This document shows positions 1,335 to 44,674 of a stretch of 64,000 nucleotides of DNA, one piece after another (the first letter of the stretch is position 1; every line of letters starts with the position of its first letter). Position numbers and translations under genes: made by a program. Source of the stretch: Eledone cirrhosa. Taxonomy: Eukaryota. The notes under the pieces are model-generated. The model was not told the DNA's origin, did not search any database, and worked only from the letters and a program-made list of their open reading frames with translations. The stretch spans positions 88,412,001 to 88,476,000 of the forward strand of contig OZ024742.1 of assembly GCA_964016885.1 (NCBI GenBank), given 5' to 3'.

Positions 1335-1876
<542 letters not shown>

Positions 1877-3110: not shown

Positions 3111-5996
3111 TAAGGAAAAAAGATGAAATCGAAAACGCAACTGGAGTGTCATTTTTTAAAAATATATATTTATTTGGTTCCTTTACCGGTTTCGCAGTCC
3201 TTCTGCTTTCCAAAAGTAGAATTGAGATGGAGGGTTTGTAGTTTTTCTCACATCTGGTTGGTGTATGAATGTTACTTCTGTTTTATTTGGAAAAAAGTGG
3301 CTCGAAATGCTAGGTTTTTACAGAAGTAATTTGGTTGGTTGGTGAATAAGCATAATAACTTTCGCACCAGTTCGCGTTACAAAGTTCTTATTATATGTGC
3401 CTTCAAAAAGGGGGGGGGGGGGGGGCTCAGGTTTTTTTTTCATATATGAGTGAAGTTTGGTTGGTTGATGCAGTCACGTGATTAAGCACATCAGCTTTCG
3501 TGCCAGTATGTGTTTGAATTTCTTTCTACTTAAAAAAAAGGTGGCTCACGAAGGCTTTTTTTTTTTATCAATGTAATTTGATTTGTTATAAATGATATTA
3601 TGACTGTCACGTGAAGAAATACATTCAATTTCGCGCCCGTATTTTGGAATTTGTTTGCAGTGAATATGGCTGGTGTGCTGGGGTTCAGAATTCAGACATT
3701 CTATTGAAATAAAGAAAGTAGAAATATGTATGTTTATTTGTGTGCTGGTGTGTATGTGTGTGTGTGTGGGGGGGGGGGGGGGATGATTCTATTAGTAGAA
3801 ATGGTGGAGGGAGTTGTGTGTGTGTATGGGTGTTATGTATATCTCTGTATGTATGTGTGGGAGTATGGTTAGCATGTTAATATGGAGAGAATATATATAT
3901 TTTGTGTGTTGTGTGTGTGTGAAGAGAAATAATTCACGTATTAGAAATGGGGGAGGGACTATGTGTGTGTGGGGGGGGGGGGGGGGTTAGCATGTTAAGG
4001 TGTTAGAATATTAACGTATGTTAAGGTTTATTTAGTTCTGGCTTTTATTTTCTAAAATAGGTGTTAAGTGTGTGTGTATGTATGTGTATTGTTGGATGGT
4101 TAGCATGTTATGGTGTTGACATAATGTATATTAAACTATATTTAATGCTGGTCTATATTTTTGAATAAACATATTTTCCTTATTGATTCCTATTTGTTCT
4201 GTTGTATTGTCAGCGCAAAGATAAAATGGGAAGACTTGGAATTTGGGTGTCCTATTACTTTCACATAGTGGTATCTGTCTCGTGGTTGGATCTCGTAATT
4301 GTTGGCTATGAACTGTCATTCTGTTTCTCAGTGTGAGTTTAGTTTGTCCTATATAATCTTCTTTGCATTCTTTACATTTAATGGCATGAAGTAGAATTTT
4401 TGATGAGCATGTGAAGTGATTTTTTTACAGCAAAATGTTGTCCTGATTGAAATGTATACGTGTTGCCTTCAGTGAGGTGAGTGCAGGTTCCACAATTAGA
4501 GCGACCACATTTTTGACAGTTGATTGTGGGTTTGGGTAAGTAATTTGGCATTGGTGAGTAATGTTTTTAATGTTGTCTTTTGCTTTTGATTATTTTGTGT
4601 GTCTCAAGGGCTTTGTTCATTCTTGGGTCTTGTTTCATTCTTGGAATCTTGTGAATAGTGTTGTAAGCTTCCGCATTTCTTGGGTTGTGTGTTGAGATAT
4701 ATGATATAATATTGGACGTACCTTGAATTTGTTTCTGCTTTCGTAACTCATCAATGCCTATTGCTTTAGCCTTTCTATTCCATTGTTTATTAGTAATGAT
4801 GGGTACTGTCTTTCGGTTAGAATTTCTTTTAATTCTAGAAGTCTTTTATTTCGCGTTTCATAATTGGAGAGAATTGGGCATATTCTTCTTGCTAGGTTAA
4901 AAGGGATGTCCATCTTCGTGTGCATTGGATGGTTGGAGGTGAAAAGCAGGTATTGTTTGGAATCTGTTGGATTGTAGTGTATGTCAGTTTCAATATTTGT
5001 GTCTTTTTTATGATTAAGATGTCCACAAATAGGAGTTGATCTTGGCTGTATTCCATTTTGAATTCGATGTGGTTATTGATGCCGTTAATTAAATTTTTTT
5101 AATCATTTAGTTGGTCGAGTGTGTGAGACCAATGAATGAGACAATCATTCAAGTAGCTTTACCAATTCTCTGATAAATGTTTGTGGGAGTTCAATCCGTA
5201 TTTTAATTTGGACTGTTCATATATCTGGACTGCCATGTATGCCATGACTAAGTTGGCATAAGATGGAGCGACTTTTGTACCCATCGCAGTCCCTGATATT
5301 TGCTTGTTAGTACTGCCATCGAAATCGAAAAGGTTGTTCGTAGAATAAATTTTAATCGCTAGGTGATGAACATTTTTTCGAATCTGTCAGGTATCTCATT
5401 CGGATATTTCTCTAGCCAGAATCCTATTGCTTCTAGTCCGTATTGGTGTCGGATCGTTGTGTAGAGATTCACTACATCGAAAGACACAATGATAGTGTCG
5501 TTGTTGACATGTTTGGCGGGGTTGTTTAAGAGGTCCAGACCGTCTCTTACATGGCTTGGTATGTGTTTGAGAATTGGTTGTAATAGTACGTCTATAAAGT
5601 TGCTTAGTCTGTGTGATTCACAGTGTGGGCCCGTTACAATTGGTCTTAATTTAAGGTATGTGCGGTATTGTGTGTTCACGCAGGTTGAGGTGGATTGTTT
5701 ACAGGCATCGTTAATTATTTTACACTTGTGGATCTTCGGAAGTCCGTAAATGTTGCTGGTTTTGTATTCAAAATGTGTTAAATTATCGCGTTCCTTTTTA
5801 GTTTAGTCTTCCTGGTGTCGACAAATGAATGTGTTTTATCTGGTCATCGTTTTTGATTGCTGGTTGTTTTTTTACTCTTTCATAGTATTTAGTATCTTGT
5901 AAGAGAGAGAACATAGAATGTTTATATTGTTCAGCATCCATAATGACGACAGTATTTCACTTGTCCGCTTCCTTAATTATAATGTCAGTATGATTT
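3111..5996 (-). mobile_element. Neptune-like Penelope element, 5'-truncated and decayed (RT + GIY-YIG + 3' UTR/pLTR)
   Basis: RPIVTGPHCESHRLSNFID, VSFDVVNLYTTI, GTAMGTKVAPSYANL, CKECKEDYIGQTKLTLRNRMTVH; HHR-like motif at 3180-3217; 3' end abuts TA repeats. Clade assigned from motif memory. Confidence 0.85.
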
Positions 5997-24995: not shown

Positions 24996-25087
<92 letters not shown>

Positions 25088-25091
<4 letters not shown>

Positions 25092-25740
25092 TAAACGGAA
25101 AAGAAAATGCTGACAAATTGTTCACAGTGAAAAATAGTTTAATTAGGAATAAGGGAAAATTAGTAATAGTATTGGTTAGTATTCAGTTTTTGGTTTTACG
25201 TTTTACCGGTTGCGCATCTCTAATGCTTTTCAAAAATAATTTTGAGATAGAGCGTCCGTGATGTTTGCTCTAATCTGATTAGTTTTGGAAATTCTACCTG
25301 TTTTTATGTTAAAAAAGTGGCTCCAGCGGTATTAAAATAAGTTTTGCGCCAATTCGTGTTGCAAAAATTATTGTGGTCAAAGCAATTTTGATTGGTCGTT
25401 AGAGGTCATGTGAATGTTAAAAATTGATTTTGCACCAAATGTAGGTTTGTGTCGGCTGATTGAGAAGTCACTGAAAAATAAGTATTTCAAAACAAATATG
25501 TGTGTGTGTAGTAGTAATAGTAAAGAGGTTCGTTGTTGTGATAATGTTCAGCAGGGATGTCTGTGCGAATCCGCAGCGTGTTGACAGTTCAAATGCCTAT
25601 TAAGACAAGTGTGTGTGTGTGTGTGTGTGTGTAGCAGAGTAATTCGTGGTAGAGGGATGGTCAGTAGGAATGTGCCTGTAAGTGTGTGGGGGATATTTTA
25701 ACATGTTAAATATATTTTTCAGCTCTTGACTTATACGGAG

Positions 25741-25773
<33 letters not shown>

Positions 25774-26906
25774 TCTTTGTATCTTAATGTACGCGTGTGT
25801 ATGTGTGTGTATATATATGTGCATGTGTGCGCATACACGTGTGTGTGTGTGTGTGTGAATGTGTGTGTGGGGTGGGTTGGGTGGGCTGTGAACCAGTAAT
25901 TATTTTGTGATACTGGTGAAATGGTGTACATTATCGATAGTTTCAGTAAAATCGATTCTCTCAATAGAACATCAACAACCTAAATAATAAAAGGTGTGAA
26001 ATGATATATAGTATTGCCATAATACCATGGTGTGTGTGAGTGTTTCCAGATTGTACGTACTGCAAGGAGAATCCATTAGACCTTGCCGTATTGGAATACC
26101 TGTGTACAAATATGTATCTGGATTGTGTCCAGAAATTGTATACCTGTGTACAAATTGTATACTTGTGTACACATTGTATATAAGTATCTGGAGTGTGTCC
26201 AGAAATTGTATACTTGTGTATAAAAATGTATCTGGAGTGTGTCCAGATTTTACGTACTCCAAGGGGAATACACACACGCACATATATACACACACACACA
26301 CATACACATGCGTACATTAACATACAAAGATACATATATACACACACACACACACTTGTCTTAATAGGAATTTGAACTGTCAACAGGCATCGCACACACA
26401 TCCCTGCTTACCATTATCACAACAACGAACCTCTTTACTACTACTACACACACACACACATATTTGTTTTGAAAGACTTATTTTTCAGTGACTTCTCAAT
26501 CAGCCGACACAAACCTATATTTGGCGCAAAACCAATTTTTAACATTCACATGATCTCTACCGACCAATCAAAATTGTTTTGACGACAATAATTTTTGCAG
26601 CACTAATTGGCGCAAAACTTATTTTAATACCGCTGGAGCCACTTTTTTAACATAAAAACAGGTAGAATTTCCAAAACTAATCAGATTAGAGCAAACATCA
26701 CGGACGCTCTATCTCAACATTATTTTTGAAAAGAATTAGAAATGCGCAACCGGTAAAACTTAGCACCAAAAACTGAATACTAACCAATACTATTACTAAT
26801 TCTCACTTATTCCTAATTAAACTATTTTTCACTGTGAACAATTTATCAGCATTTTCTTTTCCGTTTACCAATATATCATAACTTGTGTGTTACACCTCTA
26901 TTCTTT

Positions 26907-26910
<4 letters not shown>
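25088..26910. mobile_element. 1.8-kb fold-back PLE-derived element; variant HHRs at 25201-25236 (-) and 26723-26758 (+)
   Basis: Arms from 25088 and ending 26875 are inverse; right arm extends about 35 nt (aacttgtgtgttacacctctattctttt); (TA)n on both sides. Confidence 0.88.
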
Positions 26911-26956
<46 letters not shown>

Positions 26957-26959
<3 letters not shown>

Positions 26960-27159
26960 CGAAGGAAATGTGGTAAGGAACCAGGTGGACCATAACGCAC
27001 CAAAGTACTCAATACTTAGGGTAGTATAGTGGGTAATAGGAACAAGTAAGACCCCGACGGCTGAGCTCAAGCCGTTTCGACGACTAATTCTGTACTCAAT
27101 TAGTACAGAATTAGCCGTCGAAACGGCTTGAGATCAGCCGTCGGGGTCTTACTTGTTCC

Positions 27160-27161
<2 letters not shown>
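26957..27161. mobile_element. Mini fold-back of the Naiad-like terminus
   Basis: ataggaacaagtaagaccccgacggc..gtact / agtac..gccgtcggggtcttacttgttcctat; left arm about 78 nt longer. Confidence 0.85.
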
Positions 27162-27209
<48 letters not shown>

Positions 27210-27237
27210 TATATATATATGTATATATATATATAGA

Positions 27238-28077
27238 TATGCAGATAAATCTACAAAAATATACGGTAGTGTCCAATCTGTATGAAGAATAAAATGTAAT
27301 CCAAATATCCAAATATCATGAAAAGAGAAGATGTATTCATGATCTAATTTAATTGATAAGTAATTAATTTAATTTCTTGTTATAGATCTAAATTACTTGT
27401 GTTTTAAATAAGATTGATATTTCTCACTAACACATTTACCCTAAAATGTTATTCTCCTTCGATTTTAACATTAGCATTATTCTTTAATAACATCAAATTT
27501 TCGTGTAAATTTCACCAGCTTGACCTCTTTTCATCCCCAAAGGAATCCTTTCATTCAAAGTATTCTTTCCATTCAATACTTAAGTCTGCATTCCTCTACC
27601 CCTAAATTAATTTTCTACTACTACTGTTCTATTGGTCAATTCAAAACCTGTTCCCAAACAAACCTATTATATTAAATCTTTGTTGGTGTTTTTCAATAAA
27701 CAAATATCATTAGGATTGGCAGTATCGGTTCAGGCTCGGACGCCATGCTTTCCAGCATAGTTACGTCCCTTTACGATCTGAGTTCAAATCCCGCCGACGT
27801 TGACTTTGCCTTTCATGCTTACGGGGTCGATAAAATAAAGTACCAGTAATGCACTGAGGAATTGCTGGCCTTGTGCCTAACGTAGAAACAATTATTTCTA
27901 AAGACAGTATATATATGTGTAGGTATGTATATTTCCTCTGATAGTTTGTAAAATGTTTACATAGATCTATATGATATACATACCGACACACACCTATATA
28001 TCTTAGAAACGATTGTAAAATGATGAATGTTTTAATATAAGGAACTGTTTCTTTGTTTCTATTCATTGTTTTTATTA

Positions 28078-28080
<3 letters not shown>
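27238..28080. mobile_element. Diverged copy of the 52576 family with a SINE inserted just before its HHR
   Basis: Left end gataaatctac..tacggtagtgtccaatc matches 52580; 27891-28080 matches 57014-57210. Confidence 0.7.
27711..27897 (+). mobile_element. tRNA-derived SINE (OR-like family)
   Basis: Homologous to 20692-20884. Confidence 0.85.
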
Positions 28081-28118
<38 letters not shown>

Positions 28119-28123
<5 letters not shown>

Positions 28124-28503
28124 TTGACCACAAGAATTTTTGCTGGAGCCACTTTTTTAACATAAAAACAGTTTTGGCGTAAAATCAATTTTTTACATTC
28201 ACATGACCTCTACCGACCAATCATAATTGTTTTGACCACAAGAATTTTTGCAAATTGGAGCCACTTTTTTAACATAAAAACAAGTAGAATTCCCAAAACT
28301 AATCAGATCAGAGCAAACGGCACGGACACTCTATCTCAAAATTATTTTTGAAAAGCATTTAGAAATGCGCAACCGGTAAAAACTTAAAAACTTAAAACCA
28401 CAACTGAATACTAACCCATACAATCACTAATACTCTTTTATTCCTAATTAAACCATTTTTCAACTGTGAACAATTTGTCAGCATTTTCTATTCCGTTTAC
28501 CAA
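28119..28503 (+). mobile_element. Single-arm copy of the 25088 family; variant HHR at 28345-28382
   Basis: ttt-TTGAAAA-gcattt-ag-aaatgc-GCAA-ccgg-TA-aaa; ends tttaccaa then (TA)n. Confidence 0.8.
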
Positions 28504-28529
28504 TATATATATATATATATATGTATATA

Positions 28530-28830
28530 ATAACAATAATAATAATTAAGTCAAATATGTAAAATTTGGCTTCGTTTATTATAAATTATAGATATACTGG
28601 TATATATATTTCGGTGACAGCCATCATGATGGCGGTGATCTCTTCAAGCAGTCCAAATTGGTGTGGAAAAGACAGGTGCACATGTGGTTGAAGTGTGTTT
28701 TACTCCGTCAATACATCGATGTATGCCCAGCTCCAGGTTGTGTTGTTATTCCTCCGAGGAACTGGAATCGTCGAGTGCTCCAATCTGCTTGCTGAGGTGT
28801 CGGTAAACAACCAACATATACTAACAAATA
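28530..28830. mobile_element. Copy of the 15463 family (inverted arm + tail) with degenerate HHR
   Basis: tttcggtgacagccatc..tcttcaagcagtcc and tail tcgtcgagtgctc..ctgaggtgt match 15531-15574 and 15948-16000. Confidence 0.75.
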
Positions 28831-28920
28831 TATATATATATGCTATTGCATATTCGTATATACACACATATGAATGCTCTATAATATATATATATATTTA
28901 TATATATATATATATATATA

Positions 28921-29895
28921 TTAGAAAGTGAGGTTTTTTTTACAAAATGAAAAATAACCGAGGTGTCCTACACGAGTGAAAGTATAAAGAAAAAGAGATG
29001 AAATCGAAAATGCAACTGAAGTCTTATTTTTTTAAAATATATATATATTTATTTGATTCCTTTACCGGTTTCGCAGTTCTTCTGCTTTTCAAAAGGTGAG
29101 TTGAGATGGAGGGTCTGTGGTTTTTCTCACATCTGGTTGGTCTCTGAATGTTACTTGTTTCATATGGTTAAAAGTGGCTCGAAATTCCAGGTTTTTCGAG
29201 AAGTAATTTGATTGGTTTGTCAATAATTATAATAAATTTCGCGCCAGTTCGCGTTACAATAGTTCTTCAAATAAGAGAGGGGGGGGGTTGTCACAGGTTG
29301 TTTTTTCATATATGAGTGTTTGAATTTCTTTTTACTTGAAAAAAGGAGGCTCACGAAGGCTTTTTCTTGGTTGGTTATAAATGAAATTTGGCTGTCACGT
29401 GAACAAGTTTTTATTACATTTTTGCGCCCTTATTTGGAAAACTATTCTGTAGTCTTTATAGTGAATGTTATGACAATGGAGAGATAGTGGTCAAGAGAAA
29501 AGGGATTGGGAGAAATGTTCTGGTTCAGTGAATATGGCCAGCTCGCCGGGGTGTCAGAGTTCAGATTTTCTATTGAGACTGAAGATATGTATGTTTATTT
29601 GTGTGCTTGTGTGTGTGTATGTGTGTGTGTGTGTGTGTGTGTGTATTGGAAGATGATTCTATTAGTAGCGATGGGGGAGGGAGTTGTGTGTGTGTTTATA
29701 TGGGTGTTATGTGTGTGTGTGCGAGTATGTTAAGATGGAGAGAATATATATTTTGTGTGTGTGTATATATATATGTGTGTAGGAAAGTGGTTCTATTAGT
29801 AGAAATGGGGAGGGAGTTGTAGGTGTGGGGGTTGTTATGTGTGTGTATGGGTGTTATGTGTGTGGGAGTATGGTTAGCATGTTAAGATGAAGAGA

Positions 29896-29926
<31 letters not shown>

Positions 29927-30450
29927 GTGTGTATGTGTGTGTGTAGGAAAGTGATTCCTTTAGTAGGAATATTTTTGAATGAACATATTTTCCTTACTTT
30001 TTCGTGTTTGCCAGTGCAAACGTATGTTAAGGTTTATTTAGTTCGGGTTTTTATTTTCTAAAGGAGAAGGTGTTATGTGTGTGTGTGTATGTCATATTGT
30101 GGTGTTGACATAATGTATATTAAACCTTATTTAATGTTGGTCTATATTTTTGAATAAACATATTTTCCTTATTTATATAGGACAAACTAAACTCACACCC
30201 AGAAACAGAATGACAGTTCATCGCCAACAATTACGAGATCCAACCACGAGACAGATACCACTAAGTGCATATCTAGACATTTGCGCAAGTAATAAGACAC
30301 CCAAATTCCAAGTCTTCCCATTTTACCTTTGCGCTAACAATACAACAGAACAAATGCGAATAAATAAGGAAAATATGTTTATTCAAAAATATAGACCAAC
30401 ATTAAATAAGGTTTAATATACATTATGTCAACACCACAATATGACATACA
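28921..30450. mobile_element. Neptune-like 3' fragment (-) with inverted GIY-YIG piece (+); U3-A8 HHR at 29059-29096 (-)
   Basis: Colinear with 3111-4180; plus-strand YIGQTKLTPRNRMTVHRQQLRDP..KYRPTLN; cctt-TTGAAAA-gcag-aagaa-ctgc-GAAA-ccgg-TA-aagg. Confidence 0.85.
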
Positions 30451-30999
30451 CATTTGAGATCAACTAATATACAACTTATATAAATCTTCGTGTTTCTATA
30501 TCTTTAACTTATTTGGGTTTCATTCATTTAATTTATTTTAAATTTATCTTATTTCATTGTATCTTAATTTATTCTGTCTCCTTTAATATTTCCTGTTGAT
30601 ATCATTTGTTTTTCCCCCTGTTTTGGTGTTTTAATCGCGAAATATTCTTTGAACGATATTAATTACTAATATTTATAATTCAATTTGACCGGTCCTTCTC
30701 TCTGTATTTCTATTTCTCAGGCTGTCTCTGTCTCTCTTCTTCTTCCTTCCTCTCTTTCTATCTCTCTCTGTAGATCACACGAGATCTCTCTCTCTTTCTC
30801 TAAATCGCACCTTCAATTTCTCGCTGGACTTACCTATCTCCTTCTCTCTTCCCCTAACCTTTTCCCCCACTCTTCCCGCTATCTCTCTCGCTCCTCTCTT
30901 CTGTCTCTCTCCCCTCTCTTTTCTTCTGTTTCTTTTTCTTTTTTCTCTCTCTCTAGATCGCACTATCTCTCTCACTCTTTTTTTCCTCTAAATCGCTCC

Positions 31000-33900
31000 T
31001 CCACAGCGAAATGGACTGCATACAGGGAAAAGGTGAAATTAGGAGTCAGCGAAACTGGTCAAAGATGGAACTAGCGGTTTTGATCAAGGGGTGGAGCCAT
31101 GCTGATGCTTCACCACCAAGCAAAAAGATTGAGGAGACCCTGAAGAGCCATGGGTTTCTCAGGACCCTGGCACAAATAGAGAGAAAGAGAAAATAAATCG
31201 AGAAGGCCTATGTCCTTACAACGCCACATGTGGCGATGCTAAGCGGTGTCCTCAGGGAGGAGAAAAACGAAGAGAAAGGAGAAGAAAAAGAAAAGGAAGA
31301 TAGCACAAGCACGGACCTGAAAGAAAATGAGATATCCGCCGCCACAGTCAGGGAGGGAAGGCCGGGCAACCAACAAGCAAAAGGTAAAGGTGAGAAGCGA
31401 AATCACATTCCGAAGGAAAATCAAGCGCAGAGGGACCAGTGGACAACTGTTCAAAGGAAGAACAGAAAGCACCGATACACTGGGAACACGAAAACCCAAG
31501 TAATGTGCAAGTTTTTCAGGAACCGGACCTGCTGTCATGGAGAGATAGGGATGGGCTGCATATTCGCCCACCCTAGGTCTTAAACGAACTATGCCCATCC
31601 TACTCATGCAACATGCCCCAGCCAAATCCAAAACAGGCCGCTCCAGAAGTATGCTGATGTCGCGCGTGCCGCGCCAACAAGGAGAATGCACGCACATGCC
31701 GACGAGATACAGATGGCAGCAGCAGAGCAGAACAATTCTTTAGTGATGGCAGAGAAGATTGTGGGACAGCTGACCTGCCTGCAAAGTTTCCAGAGCCAGG
31801 GTCACCGACACCATCACTCGAGACCACCACAGCTAAGGGACCCAGAGTGGCCGCCGCTGATACCAGAGCAGGTCTCATACCGACAGCCATTACTGGCACC
31901 CCAAAAGTTGCAGCAGTGCTGCTGCTGAATGTAAGAGGCCTGGTGAAAGTCAGTAAAATGGGTAAAATTTCCTACTTGGGACACTTAGCCATAAGCAATC
32001 AAGCATTATGCATGGCACTAACCGAAACGCACCTGACAAGCAGTATAGAAGATGCAGAAATTCATATACCGAAATATACTGAATTTTGTTCAGATAGGAA
32101 GGAGAGAATGCATGGTGAGGTTGCTTTGTATATCCGTGAAGATGTCACACCAATTGTACAGTTGACACATTCAAACTCAGTCTGTGACACACTGATAGTA
32201 CATATGAAGCAACTACAGACAGTAATATGTGTCACATATCGGCCGCCCGATGCCCCCAATGATGAAGGTAAATTTGAGGATTGCCTCAGTAGGATAGAAG
32301 AGGTCCTTTACAAACTGAACCAGGGTCTCAACATTCAACTCCTGGCAAACTTCATCCTACCAAAGGTAAAATGGCCTGAGGGCCACCTCCTCCCTGGAAT
32401 GACGTCAATATAACAGAAACAGACGGAATCCCTGCTGGCCCTCCCACACAGGCTGTTCATGGAACAAGCAATACTCCTCCCAACAAGAGGCGAAAATGTC
32501 CTAGACCTCTGTTTTACAAACAACGAAGTGCTCATCCACAATGTAAAGGTGACATCAACAATGTTCTCGGATCATAACTTAGTAGAACTAATGATATGTG
32601 GTCCGAGAGAACCAACAGAGACAAAACCATCAAGAAGCACTGGGAGGTTATCCAGCCTTAACCTCTACATGGCTAACTGGAAAAAGATCAAGAGAGAAAT
32701 CCGGAAGCAAACATGGAGCGAAAACACCGCCACACAAGTCAACAACACACAATTTCAACACTTTATGACAACGATACACACTATATGCAAAAAGTGTGGC
32801 CCGGAGAAAAAGGCAAACATACACAAAAATCTTATTCCCAGATATAGGAAAATCCTTACGAGACGTAAACGCAAGCTCTCAAACCAGTTGAATGCACAAC
32901 AAGAAAGCAAAAACAAGAAGGAATCCTATTTGAAACCTGCACTACTTGGCACCGAGATTGCACTCAAACTTTCCCATGAAAATGAGAGTGCATTAAAACA
33001 AAACATTAAAACAATACCTAAGGCCTCCTTTAAATTTGCAAAAGAAACTGCCTCGGTACACTGCAAGATTGGGCCACTCTTCCATACAGACGCTTCATTA
33101 ACCGAGAATCCCCAAGTGATATGTAAAATACTGAACTAACAGTACAAAAGTGTGTTCACATGTCCACTGAGGCACATGAAAATAACAAAGCCAGAGGAGT
33201 TATTTGATGCCACAACACAACATGAAAAATGGCGACCATCAACCACATAGACATAACGGAGGAGGATGTGGTGTACGTCATATATGAAATTAGAACAGAC
33301 TCCGCTGTTGGACAGATGGATTACCAGCAGTCCTCTTAAAAACATGTAAACGGGCCTTAGCAACTCCACTCAAGATGCTCTTCAGAAGCTCCTTGGCTAA
33401 CGGTATACTACCCAGGGAGCTGAAAGAAGGCACAATATGCCATATCCATAAAGGAGGTAGCAAAAACTATAGGCCAGTCTCCCTGACGTAGCATATCAGT
33501 AAGGTCATGGAGCGAGTCATCAGAAAGAAACTGATCACTTTCCTCGACGAAAATGACCGCCTAACTAGCACGCAGCATGGCTTCCGCCCAGGAAGAAGCT
33601 GCCTTACACAGCTGCTACATCAATACGACTGGGTACTGAAACAACTGCTAGACAGCTCATATGTGGACGTGATATATCTTGACTCTGCGAAGGCCTTTGA
33701 CAAAGTCGACCACGGAATGATATGTCACAAACTACACGGACTCGGCATAACTGGAAAAGTAGGTGAGTGGCTGCATGACATCTTAAAGGAGAGAAGCCAG
33801 ACAGTCGCAGCAAACGGGGCCCTCTCAAAGGAAACACCAATAACAAGTGGGAAACACCAATAACAGTCCTGGGACCACTACTGTTTTTGGTGACTCTCTC

Positions 33901-34940
33901 AGACATGCCCTCTGTAGTACATACACCACCATCCCTCACTAGCTATGTTGATGACACTGAGGTAGCGCAGGCAATAAAAAACCCGGCTGACGCTGCCCTT
34001 TTACAACAAGATATGGATGCCATATACAAATGGGCGAAGAAAATAACATGCAGTTCAATGCTGACAAATTCCAAGCCCTACAATACAAACCTGCAAACAG
34101 TACAACACAGTTACGCAGGACCAGGAGGGACCGATATGCCCGTGACCGATATGCCCGTGTCAAAATCGATACGAGATATGGATATAGACATGAGCGATGA
34201 TGCATCTTTTTACTCACACATTATGAAAGTTGCGACAATGTGCAGACGACTCGCTGGCTGGATCTTGAGGACTTTCCGGACAAGAGACCGAGGTACCAGG
34301 CTGACACTATGGAGGACATTTGTCCTAAGCCTCCTGGACTATTGCCCCTAGTTGTGGTCACCACATAGTGTCAAGCTAACCACGAAGCTCGAGGCAATCC
34401 AGCGAAGCTACACCACGATGAAGGAGATACTCTACTGGGAGAGGCTAAAAGCACTGAACCTCTACTCCTTGGAACGAAGACGGGAGAGATACGCAGTGAT
34501 CTACATGTGGAAAATCCTGAAGCGACTAGCCCCAAACTTTGGCATTGGGAGCTGGACCAACCGTCGAACAGGACGTCACTATGAGGTGACAAAGGCCCCG
34601 TCTTCCACATCTAGAATAAGGAGCAGATATTGCAATAGCCTGGCATTCAAAGGCCCTCAACTCTTCAACAAGCTGCCGAGGGATCTGAGAGATCTGCATG
34701 GTGTAGAGGTGGATGTCTTCAAGAAATATCTCGACACCTTGCTCTCTAGGATCCCGGATGAGCCCACAGCAAGGCACGATGGAAACCAAAGTGCAGCAGC
34801 AACATCCTCCCTCTTACACCAGTGGCCAACCAATACAGGCTGGAGATAAAATGTGTAGCTACAAGGGCGTTGCCCCAGCATGGCCCTTGTAGATACACAT
34901 AGCCGGATGGCTGGAACAGGTAAAAGAGTAAAAGAGTAAT
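31000..34940 (+). mobile_element. Near full-length, inactivated CR1-like LINE (ORF1 with CCCH finger; ORF2 APE + RT)
   Basis: CKFFRNRTCCHGEIGMGCIFAHP; LLNVRGL..ALTETHL..YRPPDA..PTRGENVLDL..SDHNLV; QHGFRPGRSCLTQL..DSAKAFDKVDH; YVDDT; LYSLERRRERY; multiple stops and frameshifts. Confidence 0.92.
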
Positions 34941-34957
34941 ATATATATACATATATA

Positions 34958-35670
34958 GAAGCAAAAGTTTATACGGTTCGTTGATTATTCAACGGATTCG
35001 ATTTTACAATAGACTAGAAGCACTCGACAATTAATGTTCCTGGAGTATCTATAATAGTATTCAAAATATTAATAAATGAGAAATATCATAACCAAAGTAT
35101 TTATTTTATCATACATATTTCAAAGTTACAATGGTGCTTCAGTACGTTTTTATCAGATAAAATATGTAAGAGATTGGATATACGACATAACGCTAATGTA
35201 CTTGTATCATCAATTCCTGTAAAATATGGTAATTCACTGATAAATGATATGAACATTTAAAAAAATTTTGTAGTTTTGTCTAGCATTTGAAAACAACGGG
35301 TTTTTGTATTCTCTCCTTTACTTTATTTTTCCTTTTCCTTTTCTTCTTTTCTTTATTTCCCTTCTTTTCTCTCCGCATCTTCCCTTTTCTTCTTTTCTTT
35401 ATTTCCCTTTTTTCTCTCCCAATCTTCCCTTTCAACTCCCCTTCTATATATTATTTGTGGTATATAAATGTTGAGGGTTGGTGCAATAACTTACTGCCAC
35501 TACAGGAATTGATGATTCAAGTACCTTAGCCTTAAGTCGCATATCCAATCTCTTATATATTTTATCTGATGAAAATTTAAGAAATACCATTGTAACTTTA
35601 AATAAGTATAATAAAATATATACTTTGGTTATGATAATTCTCATTTATTAATATTTTGAATAATATTATA
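34958..35670. mobile_element. Fold-back element with decayed HHR-like core
   Basis: 35051-35222 is inverted at 35500-35670; left arm about 90 nt longer; ctgatga..gaaa at about 35566-35584 without clean stems. Confidence 0.7.
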
Positions 35671-35679
35671 TATATATAT

Positions 35680-36284
35680 GTCAGGTCACCAGTTGGTGCT
35701 ACTGGTAACATGTAGCCCAGTACAACCTGTCTCATGGTCGGGTCGTTGGTGACTAAACTGGCAACCCCACCAAGGTTTCTTGGTGAGGAGGGTGACTTTG
35801 GACATTCTGCAGGACTAAAAACAAAACCTGTCAAAGGGCAAAGGAGCTCTTAAAAGTCAATGGCCATCCAAATTCACCGGGAGAGATGGCCCCTTAGCCT
35901 TTGTCAAGGCAGAATTCTAGGAGAAGGAAAACTCTGATATAACACCTGCAACCCTGATGTTATCCAATGATGTTGACTTGTTCTACTTTTTGTAAATATC
36001 ATCTTGGTTAAGAGAGTGGGACTGGCTTTGTGCAGTGCCTTTGCTCATTATAAAAGCTTCACGGCATAGGCATGGCTTTATATCTGGAGATCTCTCTGCA
36101 CTTGTCGTCACATGGTACCATGGGCCCAGCACTATGTGTCAATAATTGTCACAAGTGTAGTGTTTGTACCAGAGTTTTCAATTCACTGGCTGGACTAAAA
36201 GGTCACACTCGTTCAGCCCATCGGTGGGGGTTCTCCTACATGGATATGAAGTAGTGGCCGCACTCGAAAACGAGTTGGCAGCCA

Positions 36285-36286
<2 letters not shown>
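35680..36286 (+). mobile_element. Non-autonomous RTE derivative (5' UTR joined to C-terminal C2H2 finger and 3' end)
   Basis: aggagaaggaaaactctga resembles RTE 5' UTRs; CSVCTRVFNSLAGLKGHTRSAH; no RT between them; TA flanks. Confidence 0.55.
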
Positions 36287-36363
<77 letters not shown>

Positions 36364-36391
36364 AAATAACAGGAGGCTGGACTAATGTTCC

Positions 36392-36431
<40 letters not shown>

Positions 36432-36465
36432 AGTGTATAAAATAACAGGAGGCTGGACTAATGTT

Positions 36466-36505
<40 letters not shown>

Positions 36506-37504
36506 TAAATATAAGTTGATATACACATACATATGTGTCTGTTGTGTCTGGTGTATGCGATGTGTGAATAGCATTCCTACTCTACTTAGAAGGAAAAGTA
36601 TTCTCCTCTCTTAGAAACTTGTATTTTTGCTGTATTTGTCCTTGATGCTTTCCCTAGAAGCGTATCATACCTTTTACTCTTTGCTTATTGTTGCCTAAAA
36701 GGATTATTCCAGCTGCTGCATAAAGGAAATGTCTCATGGAAATATTTCTCACGAATATTTCATATGCTATGTAAAGCAAATGCATTGTCAAAATATAACA
36801 CTTTTCTCACAGCAATAATTTTAGTTGAAATCTCTCTTGGCGTTTTCAATGTACTATTTATTCTGACCTTGTTTCTGGCTTATTTTTTTCTTGATTGTGT
36901 ATATTTACATTCCATGATATAACACATCTGTTATATGAAATACTAGATATTATTTCTTCCTTGCTTCAACATTTTTATGGGCAAAATATATTGATATATA
37001 GCTTATAAATATACATTTTAATGTGAGTATTCTCTTGCGTAAGGGAGAATATTATAAATGTAGTGAACTTAAGCCTTTCTCTAAAGGCCATATGATTGAC
37101 CTTCAGACATTTCCTTGCAGAATAACTCCAATGATATCCTCGTTTCTAACATGCTTTTAAAACCTGCATTCACATTTTGGCCGGATAGCTGGCTGGTGTA
37201 ACCGATTTCGCTTCCTAACCGTCCATTCCAGCTTCAGTCATAATGCATGGAACCTCGAGTAAATGTACCCTACTATAGATCCAAATTTATGCGTGAAATG
37301 TACTATGAGGAACCTTTGTGAAAGACGGGTGTATACATCTGGTCTCCCACTGTTATAATATTGTAGTAGTAGTAGTAGTAGTAGTAGTAGTAATAGTAGT
37401 AGTAGTACTAGGAATACTTTCATTTAAAGTTGATTACATATATTCCTGCATGTTTCTGTATTATATCATTAAACAGAATTTCCTACACACAAATACACAC
37501 ATAT

Positions 37505-37542
<38 letters not shown>

Positions 37543-37546
<4 letters not shown>

Positions 37547-40500
37547 CAAAGGAATTGCGGTAAGGAACCACATGGACCATAACGCACCAGAGTACTCAAT
37601 ACTTAGGGTAGTAGAGTGGGAAATAGGAAAAGGTATGACCCCGACGGTGGAGCTCAAGCCGTTTCGACGGCTATTTCGGGACTATATTAGAATGTTTAGT
37701 CTGGTGAATAAATAGGCGAACTTCTCAAGGGGGTACTTCCTTATATGGGAAGATTGTAGTTGTCAAGAGTATTGGTTAAAATCTGTTGTAAACACAAATA
37801 ATCTATTATGGCATTTGGTGGGGGGTAGGGGTGGCTCAACTTACCTGTAGAACAATAGGGGAGTGAGTGGAGTGGTCAAGCGTTGAAAGTGCTATATATA
37901 CAACAGATTCTAAGCATAGTGTATGAAGTGGAGGAGGGAGGTTATAGAATAGGTAAATAGAATGAGAGTAGGAGACAATAAAAGATAATAGAAAGAAAAA
38001 AAATATATATAGTGAGAAATGAATAAAAAAAATCACAATGCTATCTTACAATTACAGGTTAATATGTTGAGAATAGAAAAAACACTTGTAGAAATTGAGT
38101 ATTACCAGAACTGATACAAAATTAAAGGGGTTTAACACTTCTGCTATAACTAGTTAGTAAAACGTATTCAGCCAATTCTATCTAAAAATTCCAGGGGTGT
38201 GGGAAATGATGCTACAGAGGCCCGATGTGCCGCATCGGGGTAGGGGAAAGGGGAAAAGCGGACGAGGAAGAAAATAGGGGGTGGAAGTGATAGGACAAGA
38301 CAGGAGGAAGAAGAAGACAAAGAGGAAAAGCAAAGAGATACATCTACCTAAGTAAGCTGGGATTTCCTCTAACTTATTCGGCAAGTGGGCGGGGGGAGGG
38401 GGAGGACGGGGGGTAACAGCCTTTGTCTACCCACTCGGGTCGTTACGGGGTTTGAGGGCGAGGTAAGTCCTACGCAATCTGTGTTTGCATGCGGTAACCA
38501 ATTCGTCTTTCTTGTTTAGGAGTTGGTCCTTCGAAACAGCATTTATAATGTTTCCTCCAAGCATAAGTTACACGGACGGCGTCCTCCCGTGTAAGAGTTA
38601 TCACTGGACAGTAAGCTCCAAGTGAAATTTTAGGTTACATTATTATCTTGGACGTCCCAGATGTGGCACGAAAGTGTAGAGGCATGTCGCAGGACCGGGT
38701 TTCGGAAAGTATGCCGTTGTTGGTAGAGCCGGATCTTGAAGGTTAATCCTATATACGCTTTGTCGGAGGTGTCCGTCTTCACGTTGCACTCGTAGAGCAC
38801 ATTAATTTCTCGGCATTTGTTGTTGTGGGGGCACGTAGATCTATCAGGGCAGTTACACCTCCTGGTCGGCTCTCCGCTGATGTCTAGGTTATTTCTTCCA
38901 TAGGGGTTGAGTTTTTTTATGTTTGATGAGACGATGTTTTGTGCAAAGTTAGGTGTGGTACTGTAGGAGAGTTTGATGGCGTTTTTGTTGATTATGTTGT
39001 GGTAGTGGTGTTGTAGTGGGAAGTGTTTTTCGAGGAGTCTAAAGAAGATTTTCCCGATAGGTGTTGCCACCTCGGCATTATGGGGAGGATTGAACCACGT
39101 TACGTTGCGTGCGCGGCGGTGTCGCCTGCTGGTTCCGCTAAGGGAAGCTGGATAAAAGGATATTTCCTCCCGGAAGCCACTTCAGAGTGAAGTAATTAAT
39201 CCGTGGGTCTGGGGGTTCAGTGCGGGCGGTGACTCCGAGGCTGGAGGTATTTGTTGTCCATCTCGATTTATGTCCTTGATAATTGAATGGTTAGCCTTTT
39301 TTATAGGTGGAGTTTAGGCTGCTCCTGATCAGTGTGTGATATCTGTCAGGATTGACGAAGAAGATGTTTCCAGTTTTGTCCGAGTGCAGGAAGACAGTCC
39401 TACTTTTCGACAACTCCAAGTGGATAAAGAGAGCTCCCGACTCTCCCTTCGACGTCAGTATGGGCGCGACGGCTTCGGCCGAGGTCACAGATCTTATAGG
39501 ATTATTCCTACTATTTAAACTCTCCGAAATGTTTCCTCCATTCGGCGGTGGATTGTACCCGGATGATGGGCTCCTTACCCTCAAAGGGTACAACCCCAGT
39601 AGTACAGACCGGGTCTGTAAACAACTAATCAACTTCTTCCGGGACTGGGGATTTAAAATCACCATACAAAGGTCCATAACCCGAGTCAATTTCCTGGACG
39701 TTACCCTTAACCTCGATAATGAGCTGTACTACCATCGAGGAAACCAAACGACAACCAGCACTACATCCACCGCCGGTCTAACCATCCTAGAAACATCACC
39801 AATAACCTGGTTAAAAACATCTCCCTCTGCATATCTCGTTTGTCCGCTAATGAGCAGGCCCTCAAGCGGAGTGGCTTCCGGGAGGAAATATCCTTTCATA
39901 CAACTTCTCTTAGCGGAACCAGCAGCCGACACGGCCGCTCACGCAACTTAAAGTGGTTCAATCCTCCACACAATGTCGAGGTGTCAACATCTATCGGGAA
40001 AATCTTCTTTAGACTCCTCGAAAAACACTTCGCACTACAACACCGCTACCACAACATAATCAACAGAAACTCCATCAAACTCTCCTACATCACCACACCT
40101 AACATGGTACAAAACATCGTCTCCTCAAACAAAAAACTAAACCCCTATAGAAGAAATAACCTAGATATCAGTGGAGAGCCGACCAGGAGATGTAAGTGCG
40201 CTGATAGATCTACTTACCCCCTCAAAACAAATGCCGAAAACGTAAAGTGATCTCCCAGTGCAACGTGAGGACGGACACCTCCAACAAAGCTTATATAGGA
40301 TTAACCGCATGAGACTTCAAGACCCGGCTCTACCAGCACCTACATACTTTCTGAAACCCGGTCCGACGACAAGCACTACACTTTCGGGCCACATCTGGGA
40401 CCTCCAAGACAGTAATATAACCTACAATCTCACTTGGAGCTTACTGTCCAGAGATAACTCTTACACGGGAGGATGCCGTCCGTGTAAATCATGCTCGGAG

Positions 40501-41427
40501 GAAACATTACAAATGCTGTTTTCGAATGACAAACTCCTAAACAAGTAAGACGAACTGGTTACCGCATGCAAACACAGATTGCATAGGACTTACCTCGCCC
40601 TCAAACCCCATAACGACCCGGGTGGGTGGACAATGGCTGTTACCCAACACACACACACACTTGCCGAATAAGTTAGGGGAAACCCCAGCTTACGTAGGTA
40701 GACGTATCTCTTTTCTTTTCTTTTCCTCTTTGTCTTCTTCTTTCCCCTGTCTCATCCTATCACTTCCTTCCACCACCTATTTTATTCCTAGGCTACTTTT
40801 CCCCTTTCGCCTACCCCGATGCAGCCCATCTGGCCTCTGCCGCATCAGTTCCCCCACCCCTGTAATTTTAAGATAGAATTGGCCGAATACGTTTTACTAA
40901 CCACGTATAGCAGAAGTGTTAAACCTCTTTAATGTTGTATCAGTTCTGGTAATACTCTATTTCTACAAGATTTTCTATTCTCAACTTATTAACCTGTAAT
41001 TGTAAGATAGCATTGTGATTTTTTTTATTCATTTCTCACTATATATATATTTTTTTTCTATTATCTTTTATTGTCTCCTACTCTCATTCTATTTACCTAT
41101 TCTATAACCTGCCTCCTCCACTTCATACACTATCCTTAGAACCTGCTGTATACATAGCACTTTCAACGCTTGAGCGCTCCACTCACACCCCTATTGTTCT
41201 ACAGGCAAGTTCAGCCACCACTATCCCCCACCAAATGCCATGATAACCTTATTTGTGTTTACAACAAATTTTAACCAATCCTCTTGACAACTACAATCTT
41301 CCCATATAAGCAAGTACACCCTTGATAAGTTCGGCTATTTATTCACCAGGCTAAACATTCGGATATAGTCCAGAAATAGCCGTCGAAACGGCTTGAGCTC
41401 TGCCGTCAAGGTCATACTGTTTCCTAT
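37543..41427. mobile_element. 3.9-kb head-to-head Naiad-like PLE fold-back; U3-A8 HHRs at 37638-37734 (-) and 41317-41412 (+)
   Basis: FDVSMGATASAEVTDLIGLFLL, GLYPDDGLL, VNFLDVTLNL, WFNPPH, CNCPDRSTCP..AYIGLT; 37622-39180 is inverse to 39870-41427. Confidence 0.92.
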
Positions 41428-41446
41428 ATATACATATATATAATAT

Positions 41447-43620
41447 AATATTGTAATAAAATGGCAGGAGGCTGAACTTGTGTAAATCCTTGAAAGGTTT
41501 ATTATACTATTTCAATGACCGGGTTCCGTATCAATCCGGTGATATCATCGGGTATTTGAAATATAATAAATGATTTTCAGCCTCATGGATTTTATCTATT
41601 ACATTCATTTATTATATTTCAAATACCTGATGATATCACCGGACTCATACGCAACCCGGTCATTGAAATGATCATAGTATAATAAACCTTTCAAGTCCAG
41701 CCTCCTGTTATTTCAGTATAATATTTAACTCCGTACTAGCACAACCAACTACAAAAACGAAGACGGTTGAACTGCTTTACGTTGAGTACTCTCCATATTA
41801 TTACATTAAGATTGACCATACGGAATTGACCAGCTCTATCCAGTGGTGAACCTTCAAACCTGATTAAATAATGCTCCTGAAATGTTGAGCACTTACAAGT
41901 GTAATAATGAACAGCGGCATGGGACTGAATAGATATAACCGCCATTCCGATTTTGGATACTCTGAGCTTTGTCTACCGCCCACCTGTCCCAATGCTACTC
42001 CCCTCTCGGAATATTCAGACTTCGACAAAATTCTACGGATTATACCATAACCTGAATTGTAATGTACTGTAGTGACTAAACTCTCTACCCTATACTTCAG
42101 GGCCTGTGTAATTCACACTGAATTCTCAGACTCGAACACACACTGATTCCATTTCCATATCTATATGCATTATCTGACTGCAACTTGAACTATATTGTAT
42201 TTCTCCTGTGTTTTGATTTCTCCATGTTACTCCACCACCACTCTTTTTTGTTTATTTATATCTTTCTACCTTGGCTTTATTAATGTGCTTTGTCCACGTA
42301 TTCTACTTCTATATATCCATGTATTTTTTACTCCTCTTATTAGGACTTCTACACGCTTGTACCCATTAGCACACGGCACTAGAATGACCGTCACATAGTA
42401 GCTTTAAATTGTAGACCTAATTATAATTATTAGATGTATCACGCCTCCCTCTACTTAAACAAATACCCCTCCTGGGTAAATTAATAGTACTGGTTTGGTA
42501 CAAGGATGGCCTCACGATGAGGGCTGACTTCCAACTGGCGCACATGAAGCCTGTTATACATTACTATAGTGCTTGGAAAAATTGATTTCCATATCTTAAG
42601 CTAGGCGATCTCACTCGGAAGGGCTGACACGCGGTTAGGATGGGCCGTCGGAGCCTGTAGTCGCCTCATGCTGTTTGACTGCTAAACAAAGACATAATCT
42701 TTACTCTATAATACAAGTTAAGTTTCTTCATAAAAGAATCTTTCTTTACTAAAACCTCGCAAACAAAACCTTAAACATTTTAAACTGTTTAATTTTCAAT
42801 TTTCTAATTTCTTTAATTTTATGATGTTAATATTTATTAAATTTGTGCAACTTCATCCTATAAATCTAAACAAAAATTTAACGTTCGAATCTTCTACTCA
42901 CACATTGTAACATGCAGACCTCAACAATATTGACCTCTGTTATAATATATATCTCTGTTAAGATACGGGTCCTTTAGAATACATTTTTGCGCCATTCCTG
43001 GCCTGACTAGCTTGGCATTAGTACGGACTTTTCTTCCTCTTTCTTTCTGTCTTTCTCCTTGTAGCTCGACATTAACGCTGACTTTTCTTCTTCTCCATTT
43101 TCTTCCCCCTTCTTTCTGTCTTTTTTCGTGTAGCATGATATTAACGCTGACTTATCTTCCTCTCCCTTTCTGTTTTTCTTCTATTTGACCGGAAGGGTAG
43201 TAGCACACTATAACCTTTACTCCCCTCAACAGATACCCTCAAGTACACTGAATAGCCGGCACTTGATGGCGCCCGGCTAACGTGGAAGATGCTAGATGGT
43301 CGGTCGTCCTCCGGTCTTTGATTTTCATGCCCATGGATTTTATCTATTACATTAATTTATTATATTTCAAATACCTGATGATATCACCGGATTTATACGG
43401 AACCCGGTCATCGAAATGATCATAGTGTAATAAACCTTTCAAGGATTTACACAAGTCCAGCCTCCTGTCATTTCATTATAATATTTAACCCCGTACTAGC
43501 ACGACCGACTACAAAAACGAAGACCGTTGAACTGCTTTACGTTGAGTACGCTCCATATTATTACATTCAGATTGATCATACGGGATTGACCAGCTCTATC
43601 CGGTGGTGAATCTTCAAACC

Positions 43621-43624
<4 letters not shown>
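41447..43624 (+). mobile_element. ORF-less retrozyme-like PLE: inverted stub + pLTR(HHR) + 1.45-kb body + pLTR(HHR)
   Basis: Direct repeats 41584-41862 and 43332-43622; HHRs at 41623-41680 and 43371-43428 (atac-CTGATGA..accgg/ccggt..GAAA-tgatca-TA-gt(a/g)t). Confidence 0.88.
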
Positions 43625-43657
<33 letters not shown>

Positions 43658-43662
<5 letters not shown>

Positions 43663-44288
43663 AAAGAATAGAGGTGTAACACACAAGTTATTATATATTG
43701 GTAAATGGAATAGAAAATGCTGACAAATTGTTCACAGTTGAAAAGTGGTTTAATTAGGAATAAAAGAGTATTAGTAATTGTATGGGTTAGTATTCAGTTT
43801 TGGTTTTAAGTTTTTAAGTTTTTACCGGTTGCGCATTTCTAAATGCTTTTCAAAAATAATTTTGAGAGAGAGTGTCCGTGTTGTTTACTCTGATCTGATT
43901 AGTTTTGGAAATTATACCTGTTTTTATGTTTAAAAAGTGGTCCCAGCGCTACTTTGGTGTTGCAAAAATTCTTGTGGTCAAAACAATTTTGATTGGTCGG
44001 TAGAGGTCATGTGAATGTAAAAAATTGATTTTGCGCCAAGACTGTTTTTATGTTAAAAAAGTGGCTCCAGTGCTACTTGGTGTTTGCAAAAATTCTTGTG
44101 GTCAAAACAATTTTGATTGGTCGGTAGAGGTCATGTGAATAAAAAATTGATTCTGCGCCAAGACTGAGAAATGACTCCTTCACAACAAATATGTGTGTGT
44201 TTGTGTGTGTGTGTGTGTGTAGTAGTAGTAAGGTGTTCGATGTCGTGATAATCGTTAGCAGGGATGTGTGTCAAATGGCTATTAAGAT

Positions 44289-44347
<59 letters not shown>

Positions 44348-44588
44348 GAAGAGTAATTCGTGGTAGCAGGGATGGTCAGTAGGAATGTGTATGTAGGCAG
44401 TGGGGGGTAATTTAGCACTCTATCTCAAAATTATTTTTGAAAAGCATTTAGAAATGCGCAACCGGTTAAAAGTCAAAAACTTAAAACCACAACTGAATAC
44501 TAACCTATAAAATTACTAATACTCTTTTATTCCTAATTAAACCATTTTTCAACTGTGAACAATTTGTCAGCATTTTCTATTCCGTTTA

Positions 44589-44593
<5 letters not shown>
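43658..44593. mobile_element. Fold-back of the 25088 family; variant HHRs at 43820-43856 (-) and 44434-44471 (+)
   Basis: Left arm carries the long tail; right arm stops at tttaccaa then (TA)n. Confidence 0.85.

Positions 44594-44674
<81 letters not shown>

What the first reader, a model, noticed from the sequence alone, without database searches (positions are those of the whole stretch)
25201..44471. Family-fixed double-variant hammerhead core: U3-A8 plus GCAA instead of GAAA
Seen: five copies (25201 -, 26723 +, 28345 +, 43820 -, 44434 +) read ttt-TTGAAAA-g(c/a)att..atgc-GCAA-ccgg-T(A/T)-aaa. The related family (29059, 3180) has the same layout with GAAA. GCAA in all five otherwise diverged copies means the progenitor amplified with it. 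Known: C3-G8 to U3-A8 is a tolerated compensatory change, while A13 is normally near-invariant. Inference: this is either a new functional core variant or a ribozyme fold retained without cleavage.
Basis: partly seen in the sequence, partly recalled or inferred. Interest (0 to 1): 0.7.

Follow-up and report, generated by a model that had tools for sequence, protein, structure and literature searches.

The report
Penelope retrotransposon with fixed mutant hammerhead
A young jumping-gene family with over 11,000 copies in this animal genome carries a hammerhead-ribozyme motif in which a normally constant core A is replaced by C; the motif is predicted to fold poorly and likely cuts its RNA only rarely, which makes the family a natural test of whether these elements need their ribozyme at all.

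Summary
Observation confirmed, with corrections. All five motifs read U3-A8 plus GCAA, but they are 91-97% identical and form two inverted pairs plus one single copy. They are end repeats (pLTRs) of an autonomous two-ORF Penelope-like retrotransposon (RT plus GIY-YIG, Neptune/Nematis-type motifs). GCAA is family-fixed: 11,570 genomic matches against 120 with another base at position 13, across three subfamilies. A sister family keeps GAAA (14,288 matches). Minimal U3-A8 hammerheads in Penelope elements are published; I found no natural C13 core, but could not read the most relevant paper. Against activity: a 3-bp all-A-U stem I, a competing hairpin, a dimer fold 9 kcal/mol above the minimum, and 24 of 30 sampled copies spanning the uncut site. 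For residual activity: the block is invariant across subfamilies (0/42 vs 24/216 variable sites), stem II gained pairs, and copy starts show a modest excess at the exact predicted cut (18 vs 6 at matched sites; hand tally, one replicate not significant). Best reading: a weakened, rarely cutting ribozyme that most insertions do not need. The scan noted similar fixed core variants (A6C, U4A) and cut-site marks on other DNA. New variant of a known kind.

The parts
25087..26120 (-). Copy a: 3' part of the Penelope-like element (3' UTR plus pLTR), short 3' end in (TA)n; inverted partner of copy b
   Evidence: 89% to the element in L336 over 25077-26120; inverted repeat I3
25201..25236 (-). Minimal type I hammerhead motif, U3-A8, C13 at 25212, predicted cut after 25204
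26323..26909 (+). Copy b: pLTR with the 30-nt tail, ending in (TA)n
26723..26758 (+). Hammerhead motif, C13 at 26747, stem II broken by a private change, predicted cut after 26755
28118..28503 (+). Copy c: 5'-truncated pLTR of the youngest subfamily between (TA)n runs
   Evidence: 100% identical 201-nt copies on other contigs
28345..28381 (+). Hammerhead motif, C13 at 28370, predicted cut after 28378
43659..44417 (-). Copy d: pLTR with tail plus 3' UTR; inverted partner of copy e
43820..43856 (-). Hammerhead motif, C13 at 43831, predicted cut after 43823
44416..44594 (+). Copy e: 5'-truncated pLTR, short 3' end in (TA)n
44434..44470 (+). Hammerhead motif, C13 at 44459, U at position 17
28983..29318 (-). 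Sister-family pLTR copy; hammerhead 29059-29096 with GAAA (A13 at 29071) and a 4-bp stem I
   Evidence: 14,288 genomic matches of the GAAA pattern
3109..3452 (-). Older sister-family copy; GAAA, private G at position 6
1656..1693 (+). Third related U3-A8/GAAA motif, decayed stem II, 5-bp stem I

Best explanation
The motif is the minimal hammerhead in the end repeats of a young, protein-coding Penelope-like retrotransposon whose whole family carries C at core position 13; it is likely a weakened ribozyme that would cut only rarely, as a dimer and probably with help from the element's protein, while most new copies are made from uncut RNA. Shown: family fixation, pLTR position, an intact RT plus GIY-YIG frame in one fetched copy, insertion into (TA)n as inverted pairs, and most copies spanning the predicted cut. 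Inferred: two motifs pair through the ACCGGU palindrome to build stem III; C13, the 3-bp stem I and a family-specific hairpin over U3-A6 keep the ribozyme mostly off; occasional cutting after A17 leaves RNA 5' ends that are sometimes copied into the genome; this low activity, or the fold needed for it, is under purifying selection.
For: Element identity: 784-codon open frame in L031 with RVT_1 and GIY-YIG above Pfam cut-offs, 455-codon ORF1 in L027/L029, direct pLTRs 4,805 nt apart and identical at 386 of 388 sites. Fixation: 11,570 GCAA vs 120 non-C (first 100 rows: T 53, A 32, G 15, my count); three subfamilies all GCAA; ORF2 pN/pS 0.16 between two subfamily copies. Impairment: dimer fold -8.7 vs minimum -17.9 kcal/mol in copies c/d, against -21.1 vs -22.5 in the sister copy; stem I probability 0.00 with a competing hairpin; A13 changes cost 10-100-fold (PMC4075628, passage). 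Mostly uncut template: 24 of 30 copies picked by a 3' anchor hold the whole motif, 0 of 30 start at the cut. Constraint: 0 of 42 sites in the motif block vs 24 of 216 flanking sites have a second state at 5% or more in 115 copies, p=0.018; none of 20 listed variant places falls in L029 6303-6363 in four runs of contigs; double-sided changes at stem I pair 3 (6 U-A, 5 C-G) and stem II pair 4. Cut marks (hand tallies): starts exactly at the cut in 30 of 117 GCAA rows and 26 of 97 sister rows vs about 13 of 135 control rows; 18 vs 6 at sequence-matched internal sites, p=0.011. Precedent: a PLE hammerhead that cuts only with its protein and whose mutants insert normally in vitro (PMC11167929).
Against: No cleavage was measured and no RNA data were available. 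The cut-mark excess is small (about 0.2-0.4% of copies, my estimate) and fragile: in the youngest subfamily positions 0/-1 gave 11 vs 9 at the matched site (p=0.41) and the exact site 8 vs 4 (p=0.19); TA-flanked joints are distributed alike at the cut and matched site, and several 'cut' rows are fold-backs in an A/T run; of 100 ORF1-linked copies 5 start within 2 nt of the cut but none exactly at it, two with extra repeat units. In the sister, +1 is nearly as common as 0 (21 vs 25). The invariant block runs from -50 to +13, wider than the ribozyme, and includes the inhibitory hairpin. Many of the 115 copies came from searches that required an exact core. Inverted pairs with U13, G13 or A13 in both arms exist, so position 13 does not gate mobilisation. 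The sister's stem I is also poorly predicted as a monomer (p=0.07), so folding energies separate the families less than they seem to.
Confidence: 0.5

Rival explanations
1. The motif no longer cuts at all; the block is kept for a non-catalytic job such as RT binding, RNA dimerisation through the palindrome, or promoter function of the pLTR.
For: Three handicaps at once (C13, 3-bp A-U stem I, hairpin over the core); invariant block wider than the ribozyme; hammerhead mutants do not affect PLE insertion in vitro; Naiad PLEs spread without canonical hammerheads (PMC8557442); matched-site test not significant in the youngest subfamily.
Against: Every other core base, H17, the palindrome and stem II are kept through three subfamilies; pooled excess of starts at the exact cut, of similar share to the GAAA sister (26% vs 27%, p=0.88).
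Confidence: 0.33
2. C13 and the stem I decay are neutral changes that hitchhiked in a successful master copy; the motif is a relic that has not yet had time to decay.
For: The lineage is young: subfamily majorities differ at 16 of 251 sites, copies are 1.1-3.1% from them; the conservation signal is only p=0.018.
Against: 0 of 42 vs 24 of 216 variable sites, same gap in independent contigs; the one stem II substitution between subfamilies adds a pair.
Confidence: 0.1
3. The RNA is cut or ends at this site by another agent: trans cleavage by the abundant GAAA sister hammerhead, which shares the ACCGGU palindrome, a cellular nuclease, or an RT stop at the palindrome.
For: Identical palindrome in both families and 14,288 sister copies; cut marks of similar share despite the worse fold.
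Against: The sister's stem I arm can form only 2 pairs with the GCAA substrate arm (read); the same UA context 7-8 nt downstream shows no peak at the matching base; a stop at the palindrome would favour -1, not 0.
Confidence: 0.07

Closest known systems
Minimal hammerheads (min-HHR) in pLTRs of metazoan Penelope-like elements, U3-A8 variant of Schistosoma mansoni Cercyon (Cervera and de la Pena 2014, PMC4209133; parts 1-2 of 4 and supplement passages read)
   Same: Type I layout in the pLTR, tiny palindromic helix III, U3-A8 core (one S. mansoni entry has the same seven-letter 5' core), opposite-strand pairs 100-700 bp apart, predicted dimer action, low activity.
   Different: C instead of A at position 13, fixed in over 11,000 copies; stem I of 3 A-U pairs (4-5 bp there); stem II 4-5 bp without the extra unpaired base; competing hairpin over the core.
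Neptune/Nematis-type C-terminal-EN Penelope-like elements (Craig et al. 2021, PMC8557442; passages and supplement search)
   Same: RT then GIY-YIG, CX2-5CxxC linker, CCHH motif, separate ORF1, (TA)n targets, inverted 5'-truncated arm, 30-40 bp optional tail.
   Different: No tree against named references was built, so Neptune vs Nematis is not settled; the paper calls canonical hammerheads universal in these clades, here the core departs from the canon.
PAc (Poseidon, Anolis) protein-assisted hammerhead (Frangieh et al. 2024, PMC11167929; parts 1-2 of 4 read)
   Same: Two 3' ends about 30 nt apart at the pLTR-ORF junction, AT-rich targets, uncut RNA as main template.
   Different: PAc has a canonical C3-G8/GAAA core overlapping the start codon; here the motif lies about 185 nt before the first ATG of ORF1 and has U3-A8/C13.
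Natural hammerhead core variants (Perreault et al. 2011, PMC3088659; section 8 and passages read)
   Same: U3-A8 covariation is natural; single core changes (A6C, U15.1-A16.1) keep low activity.
   Different: The text lists no substitution at A13 (only an insertion, U13a); its figures and Figure S7 of inactive variants were not seen.

Membership tests
Penelope-like element, C-terminal EN+ | RT followed by GIY-YIG endonuclease in one frame | tested here: met
   L031 1364-3715: RVT_1 30.3 bits (cut-off 29.6), GIY-YIG 28.4 (22.6)
Penelope-like element, C-terminal EN+ | Pseudo-LTRs in partial tandem, inverted 5'-truncated arm, optional tail | tested here: met
   L027 direct pLTRs, L029/L036 inverted arms, two 3' ends
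Neptune/Nematis clades | CX2-5CxxC linker and CCHH motif in the endonuclease | tested here: met
   Read from the L031 translation against the definition
Neptune clade | RT phylogeny groups with named Neptune elements | not tested
   No named reference proteins were fetched
Hydra or Naiad clades | Hydra: no CCHH; Naiad: N-terminal endonuclease | tested here: not met
   CCHH present and endonuclease C-terminal
Hammerhead ribozyme (consensus core) | 3-8 Watson-Crick pair, U4 G5 A6 A9 G12 A14, A15.1-U16.1, H17 | tested here: met
   U3-A8 and all listed bases present in 5 of 5 window copies
Hammerhead ribozyme (consensus core) | A13 | tested here: not met
   C in 5 of 5 window copies and about 99% genome-wide
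Hammerhead ribozyme (consensus core) | Stems I, II, III able to form, with covariation | tested here: inconclusive
   Stem II p>=0.95; stem III only as dimer; stem I 3 bp, p=0.00; 3 pairs with double-sided change among related families
Hammerhead ribozyme (consensus core) | Match to an Rfam hammerhead model | tested here: inconclusive
   No hammerhead family among the 150 listed of 228 matches at E<=5; 78 weaker rows not shown; the GAAA relatives are missed too
Hammerhead ribozyme | Site-specific self-cleavage after position 17 | not testable with these tools
   Only indirect genomic start-site tallies
Non-LTR retrozyme | Non-coding, head-to-tail tandem units each with a hammerhead | tested here: not met
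   No tandem array at these copies; the repeat flanks coding ORFs

The most novel reading that the evidence does not exclude
A U3-A8/C13 minimal hammerhead is a working, deliberately throttled ribozyme: once G8 is replaced by A, position 13 is freed, and an upstream hairpin keeps the core off until the element's protein or a partner RNA opens it; the genome preserves its cut marks at about the same rate as in the GAAA sister family. The two families would be a natural matched pair for testing what Penelope hammerheads do.
Probability: 0.3. Interest if true: 0.65.

Novelty: new variant of a known kind. Interest (0 to 1): 0.45.

Why it matters
Why Penelope-like elements carry hammerheads is open: the ribozymes are slow, one study found them dispensable for insertion in vitro, and a large clade lacks them. 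Here two abundant families in one genome share the motif and differ at a core base thought near-invariant. If the C13 form cuts, the list of essential core bases shrinks and descriptor searches that demand GAAA miss large families. If it does not, a family of over 11,000 copies shows that cleavage can be dropped while the fold is kept, pointing to a non-catalytic role. Either result comes from one small bench assay.

Tried and rejected
Rfam scan: no hammerhead hit among listed rows, uninformative for minimal motifs. Apparent second copy starting at the cut (L035) was the edge of the fetched stretch; dropped. L056, first suspected of hyper-editing, has only 3 mixed substitutions. An ancestral A13 subfamily with this stem II: the 12 A13 loci printed span several subtypes and share no diagnostic change; A13 is somewhat enriched in the older subfamily (23 A vs 7 G, against 9 vs 8; my count), left unexplained. 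Re-reading the core through the GAAA in loop II: no stems form (by inspection). Retrozyme, Naiad and Hydra assignments rejected (membership test). RNA runs: no RNA holder listed. Runs X5 and X6 of other coded organisms hold near-identical pieces with no change at position 13, but their source is unclear and X6 is barely covered, so no claim on species range. Papers not held: Lunse et al. 2017 on small PLE hammerhead variants, Nelson and Uhlenbeck 2008, Scott et al. 2013; one search fetched an unrelated paper. PMC9901934, PMC3907566, PMC11014351 and PMC11300833 (passages) gave no A13C datum; the supplements of PMC9901934 were listed but not read; file 1 of the PMC4209133 supplement was not searched; bioRxiv supplements are closed. 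Sequence look-up of earlier findings gave nothing.
Full report
Observation. The GAAA relatives at 29059 and 3180 are on the minus strand, and a third lies at 1659. The five copies are 91.1-97.2% identical over the shared 168-179 aligned sites. Copies a+b and d+e are head-to-head inverted pairs, each with one short 3' end and one tailed end in (TA)n, so the window holds at most three insertion events.

Fixation. The own genome has 3.0 Gb; earlier scan notes call it octopus-type, which I did not test. The long form of the motif with N at position 13 has 6,258 exact matches, reversed control 0; of the first 100 listed, 98 have C, 1 A, 1 G. A looser pattern gives 11,570 GCAA matches and 14,288 GAAA matches, nearly all of the first 100 with the sister's stem II. 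With this family's two main stem II forms only 120 matches have A, G or T, about 1% (the two patterns differ slightly). Of 103 copies joined to the ORF1 start I fetched 100; 67 span the core and all 67 have C13, two of them with a private change at G12. Three subfamilies differ in stem II and flanks and all have GCAA.

What it is. Twenty stretches around paired matches showed the repeat flanking a 455-codon ORF1 and a 784-codon ORF2. ORF2 of L031 is open and scores RVT_1 and GIY-YIG above cut-off; ORF1 has no Pfam match. The translation holds the CX2-5CxxC linker and CCHH motif that mark Neptune/Nematis elements; no tree was built. L027 has direct pLTRs identical at 386 of 388 sites, and ORF2 of two subfamily copies differs by 32 synonymous and 20 non-synonymous changes, pN/pS 0.16. 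The lineage therefore kept transposing under protein-level selection while carrying C13. Copies are a median 1.1% (91 long-form) and 3.1% (18 short-form) from their majority. The sister family's RT pieces are about 50-59% identical in protein, so the split is old and the date of the C13 change is not fixed by my data.

Known background. Minimal dimer-type hammerheads in pLTRs and the U3-A8 variant are described (PMC4209133). Natural core variants in PMC3088659 section 8 include U3-A8, A6C, U13a and U15.1-A16.1, not an A13 substitution. PMC4075628 cites 10-100-fold loss for A13 changes against over 100-fold for C3, G5, G8, G12, A14. A search for 'A13C' with hammerhead terms gave 0 papers; related searches gave no natural C13 case. 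Lunse et al. 2017, the likeliest place for one, was not held. PMC11167929 found that a PLE hammerhead cuts only with protein and that its mutants insert normally; PMC8557442 notes that Naiads spread without canonical hammerheads.

Evidence for impairment. Stem I is 3 A-U pairs in 5 of 5 copies against 4 pairs with two G-C in the sister copy; the double-hammerhead fold lies 9 kcal/mol above the minimum for copies c/d and 1.4 above for the sister. With 45 nt upstream, a family-specific 6-bp hairpin covers U3-A6 and the stem I arm; stem I probability is 0.00, though only 0.07 in the sister. Of 30 copies picked by a 3' anchor (of 9,478), 24 hold the whole motif, 7 start at -79 to -65 from the cut, none at the cut. 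Most insertions thus come from RNA that was not cut here.

Evidence for constraint. In 115 copies, 0 of 42 sites from -38 to +3 have a second base at 5% or more, against 24 of 216 flanking sites (p=0.018); part of this sample required an exact core, but contigs of four runs show the same gap. Across families, stem I pair 3 is U-A in 6 rows and C-G in 5, stem II pair 4 is U-A in 6, G-C in 2, unpaired in 3; stem I pair 4 is unpaired in 9 of 11 (12 related rows, one misaligned). The subfamily I take as oldest has a 4-bp stem II, the later ones 5 bp. The invariant block extends from -50 to +13, so it may serve something other than catalysis.

Cut marks. I counted by hand the printed rows of patterns that select copies lacking the upstream sequence. 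Starts exactly at the first base after A17: 15 of 65 (79 rows, 14 dropped), 15 of 52 (60 rows, 8 dropped), sister 26 of 97 (first 100 of 218, 3 dropped); control windows 3 of 35 and about 10 of the first 100 of 117; pooled p=0.001, families alike p=0.88. The controls differ in base context, so I used matched internal sites. Short subfamily (75 rows, 19 dropped, 3 ambiguous): 10 at the cut vs 2, and 16 vs 4 with the neighbouring base. Long subfamily (first 100 of 170, 3 dropped, 2 ambiguous): 8 vs 4, and 11 vs 9. Pooled 18 vs 6, p=0.011; 17 vs 6 after collapsing pairs, p=0.017. The sister shows 7, 25, 21, 13, 7, 7 from -1 to +4 (first 100 of 161). TA microhomology and TTAA fold-backs make peaks as large or larger nearby, and rows and 69/72 overlap. 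The signal is suggestive only.

Verdict. The element and the fixation are shown. Cleavage is not. I put 0.5 on a weakened ribozyme that cuts rarely, 0.33 on a non-cutting fold kept for another role, 0.1 on a neutral relic and 0.07 on cutting by another agent. It works like a Penelope minimal hammerhead but fails the consensus at A13, so it is a new variant of a known kind. Earlier scan notes report similar fixed variants at positions 4 and 6 and cut-site marks in other families; I did not check those, and they are not support.

Noticed in passing
L019:1183(+) and L019:1655(-): Two family copies are hyper-mutated in one direction (T>C 26 of 36 changes; A>G 21 of 24), as expected if A-to-I edited double-stranded RNA was copied back into DNA.
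   Followed up: partly
About 75 nt upstream of the predicted cut (window 26680 region); L036-L039, L217, L218, L227: Strong 5'-end hot spot: 7 of 30 sampled copies start at -79 to -65, and 10 inverted pairs spaced exactly 110 nt are among the first 100 rows; the sister family has pairs at 108-114 nt. Possibly the transcription start of the pLTR promoter or a fold-back site.
   Followed up: partly
L238, L244, L245, L252, L255, L261, L265: Extra copies of the 8-nt unit just after the cut site appear at 5' junctions (7 of 8 such loci printed lack the upstream motif), like template slippage at an RNA end or templated insertion during repair.
   Followed up: partly
window 52303(+) and 51885(-): Another U3-A8 minimal hammerhead family with GAAA and a longer palindrome, as an inverted pair.
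   Followed up: no
window 15811(+), 15567(-), 28647(-), 10795(-), 41627(+), 43375(+), 50167(-), 63476(+), 9506(-): Several further hammerhead-like motifs with C3 (one U3) cores in other repeats.
   Followed up: no
window 4140-5983(-), 30174-30407(+), 38630-40250: Broken RT and GIY-YIG pieces of other Penelope-like families (38-51% protein identity to ORF2 for the first two).
   Followed up: no
window 52716-57211: Large nested inverted repeat, arms of 594 and 492 nt at 98%.
   Followed up: no
L344, L345: Inverted pairs 2.6-3.1 kb apart carry A13 or U13 in both arms, so RNAs with other bases at position 13 also served as templates.
   Followed up: partly
G000:C22:23088709-23088964: A tandem array of a 17-nt piece of the pLTR (12 rows).
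   Followed up: no
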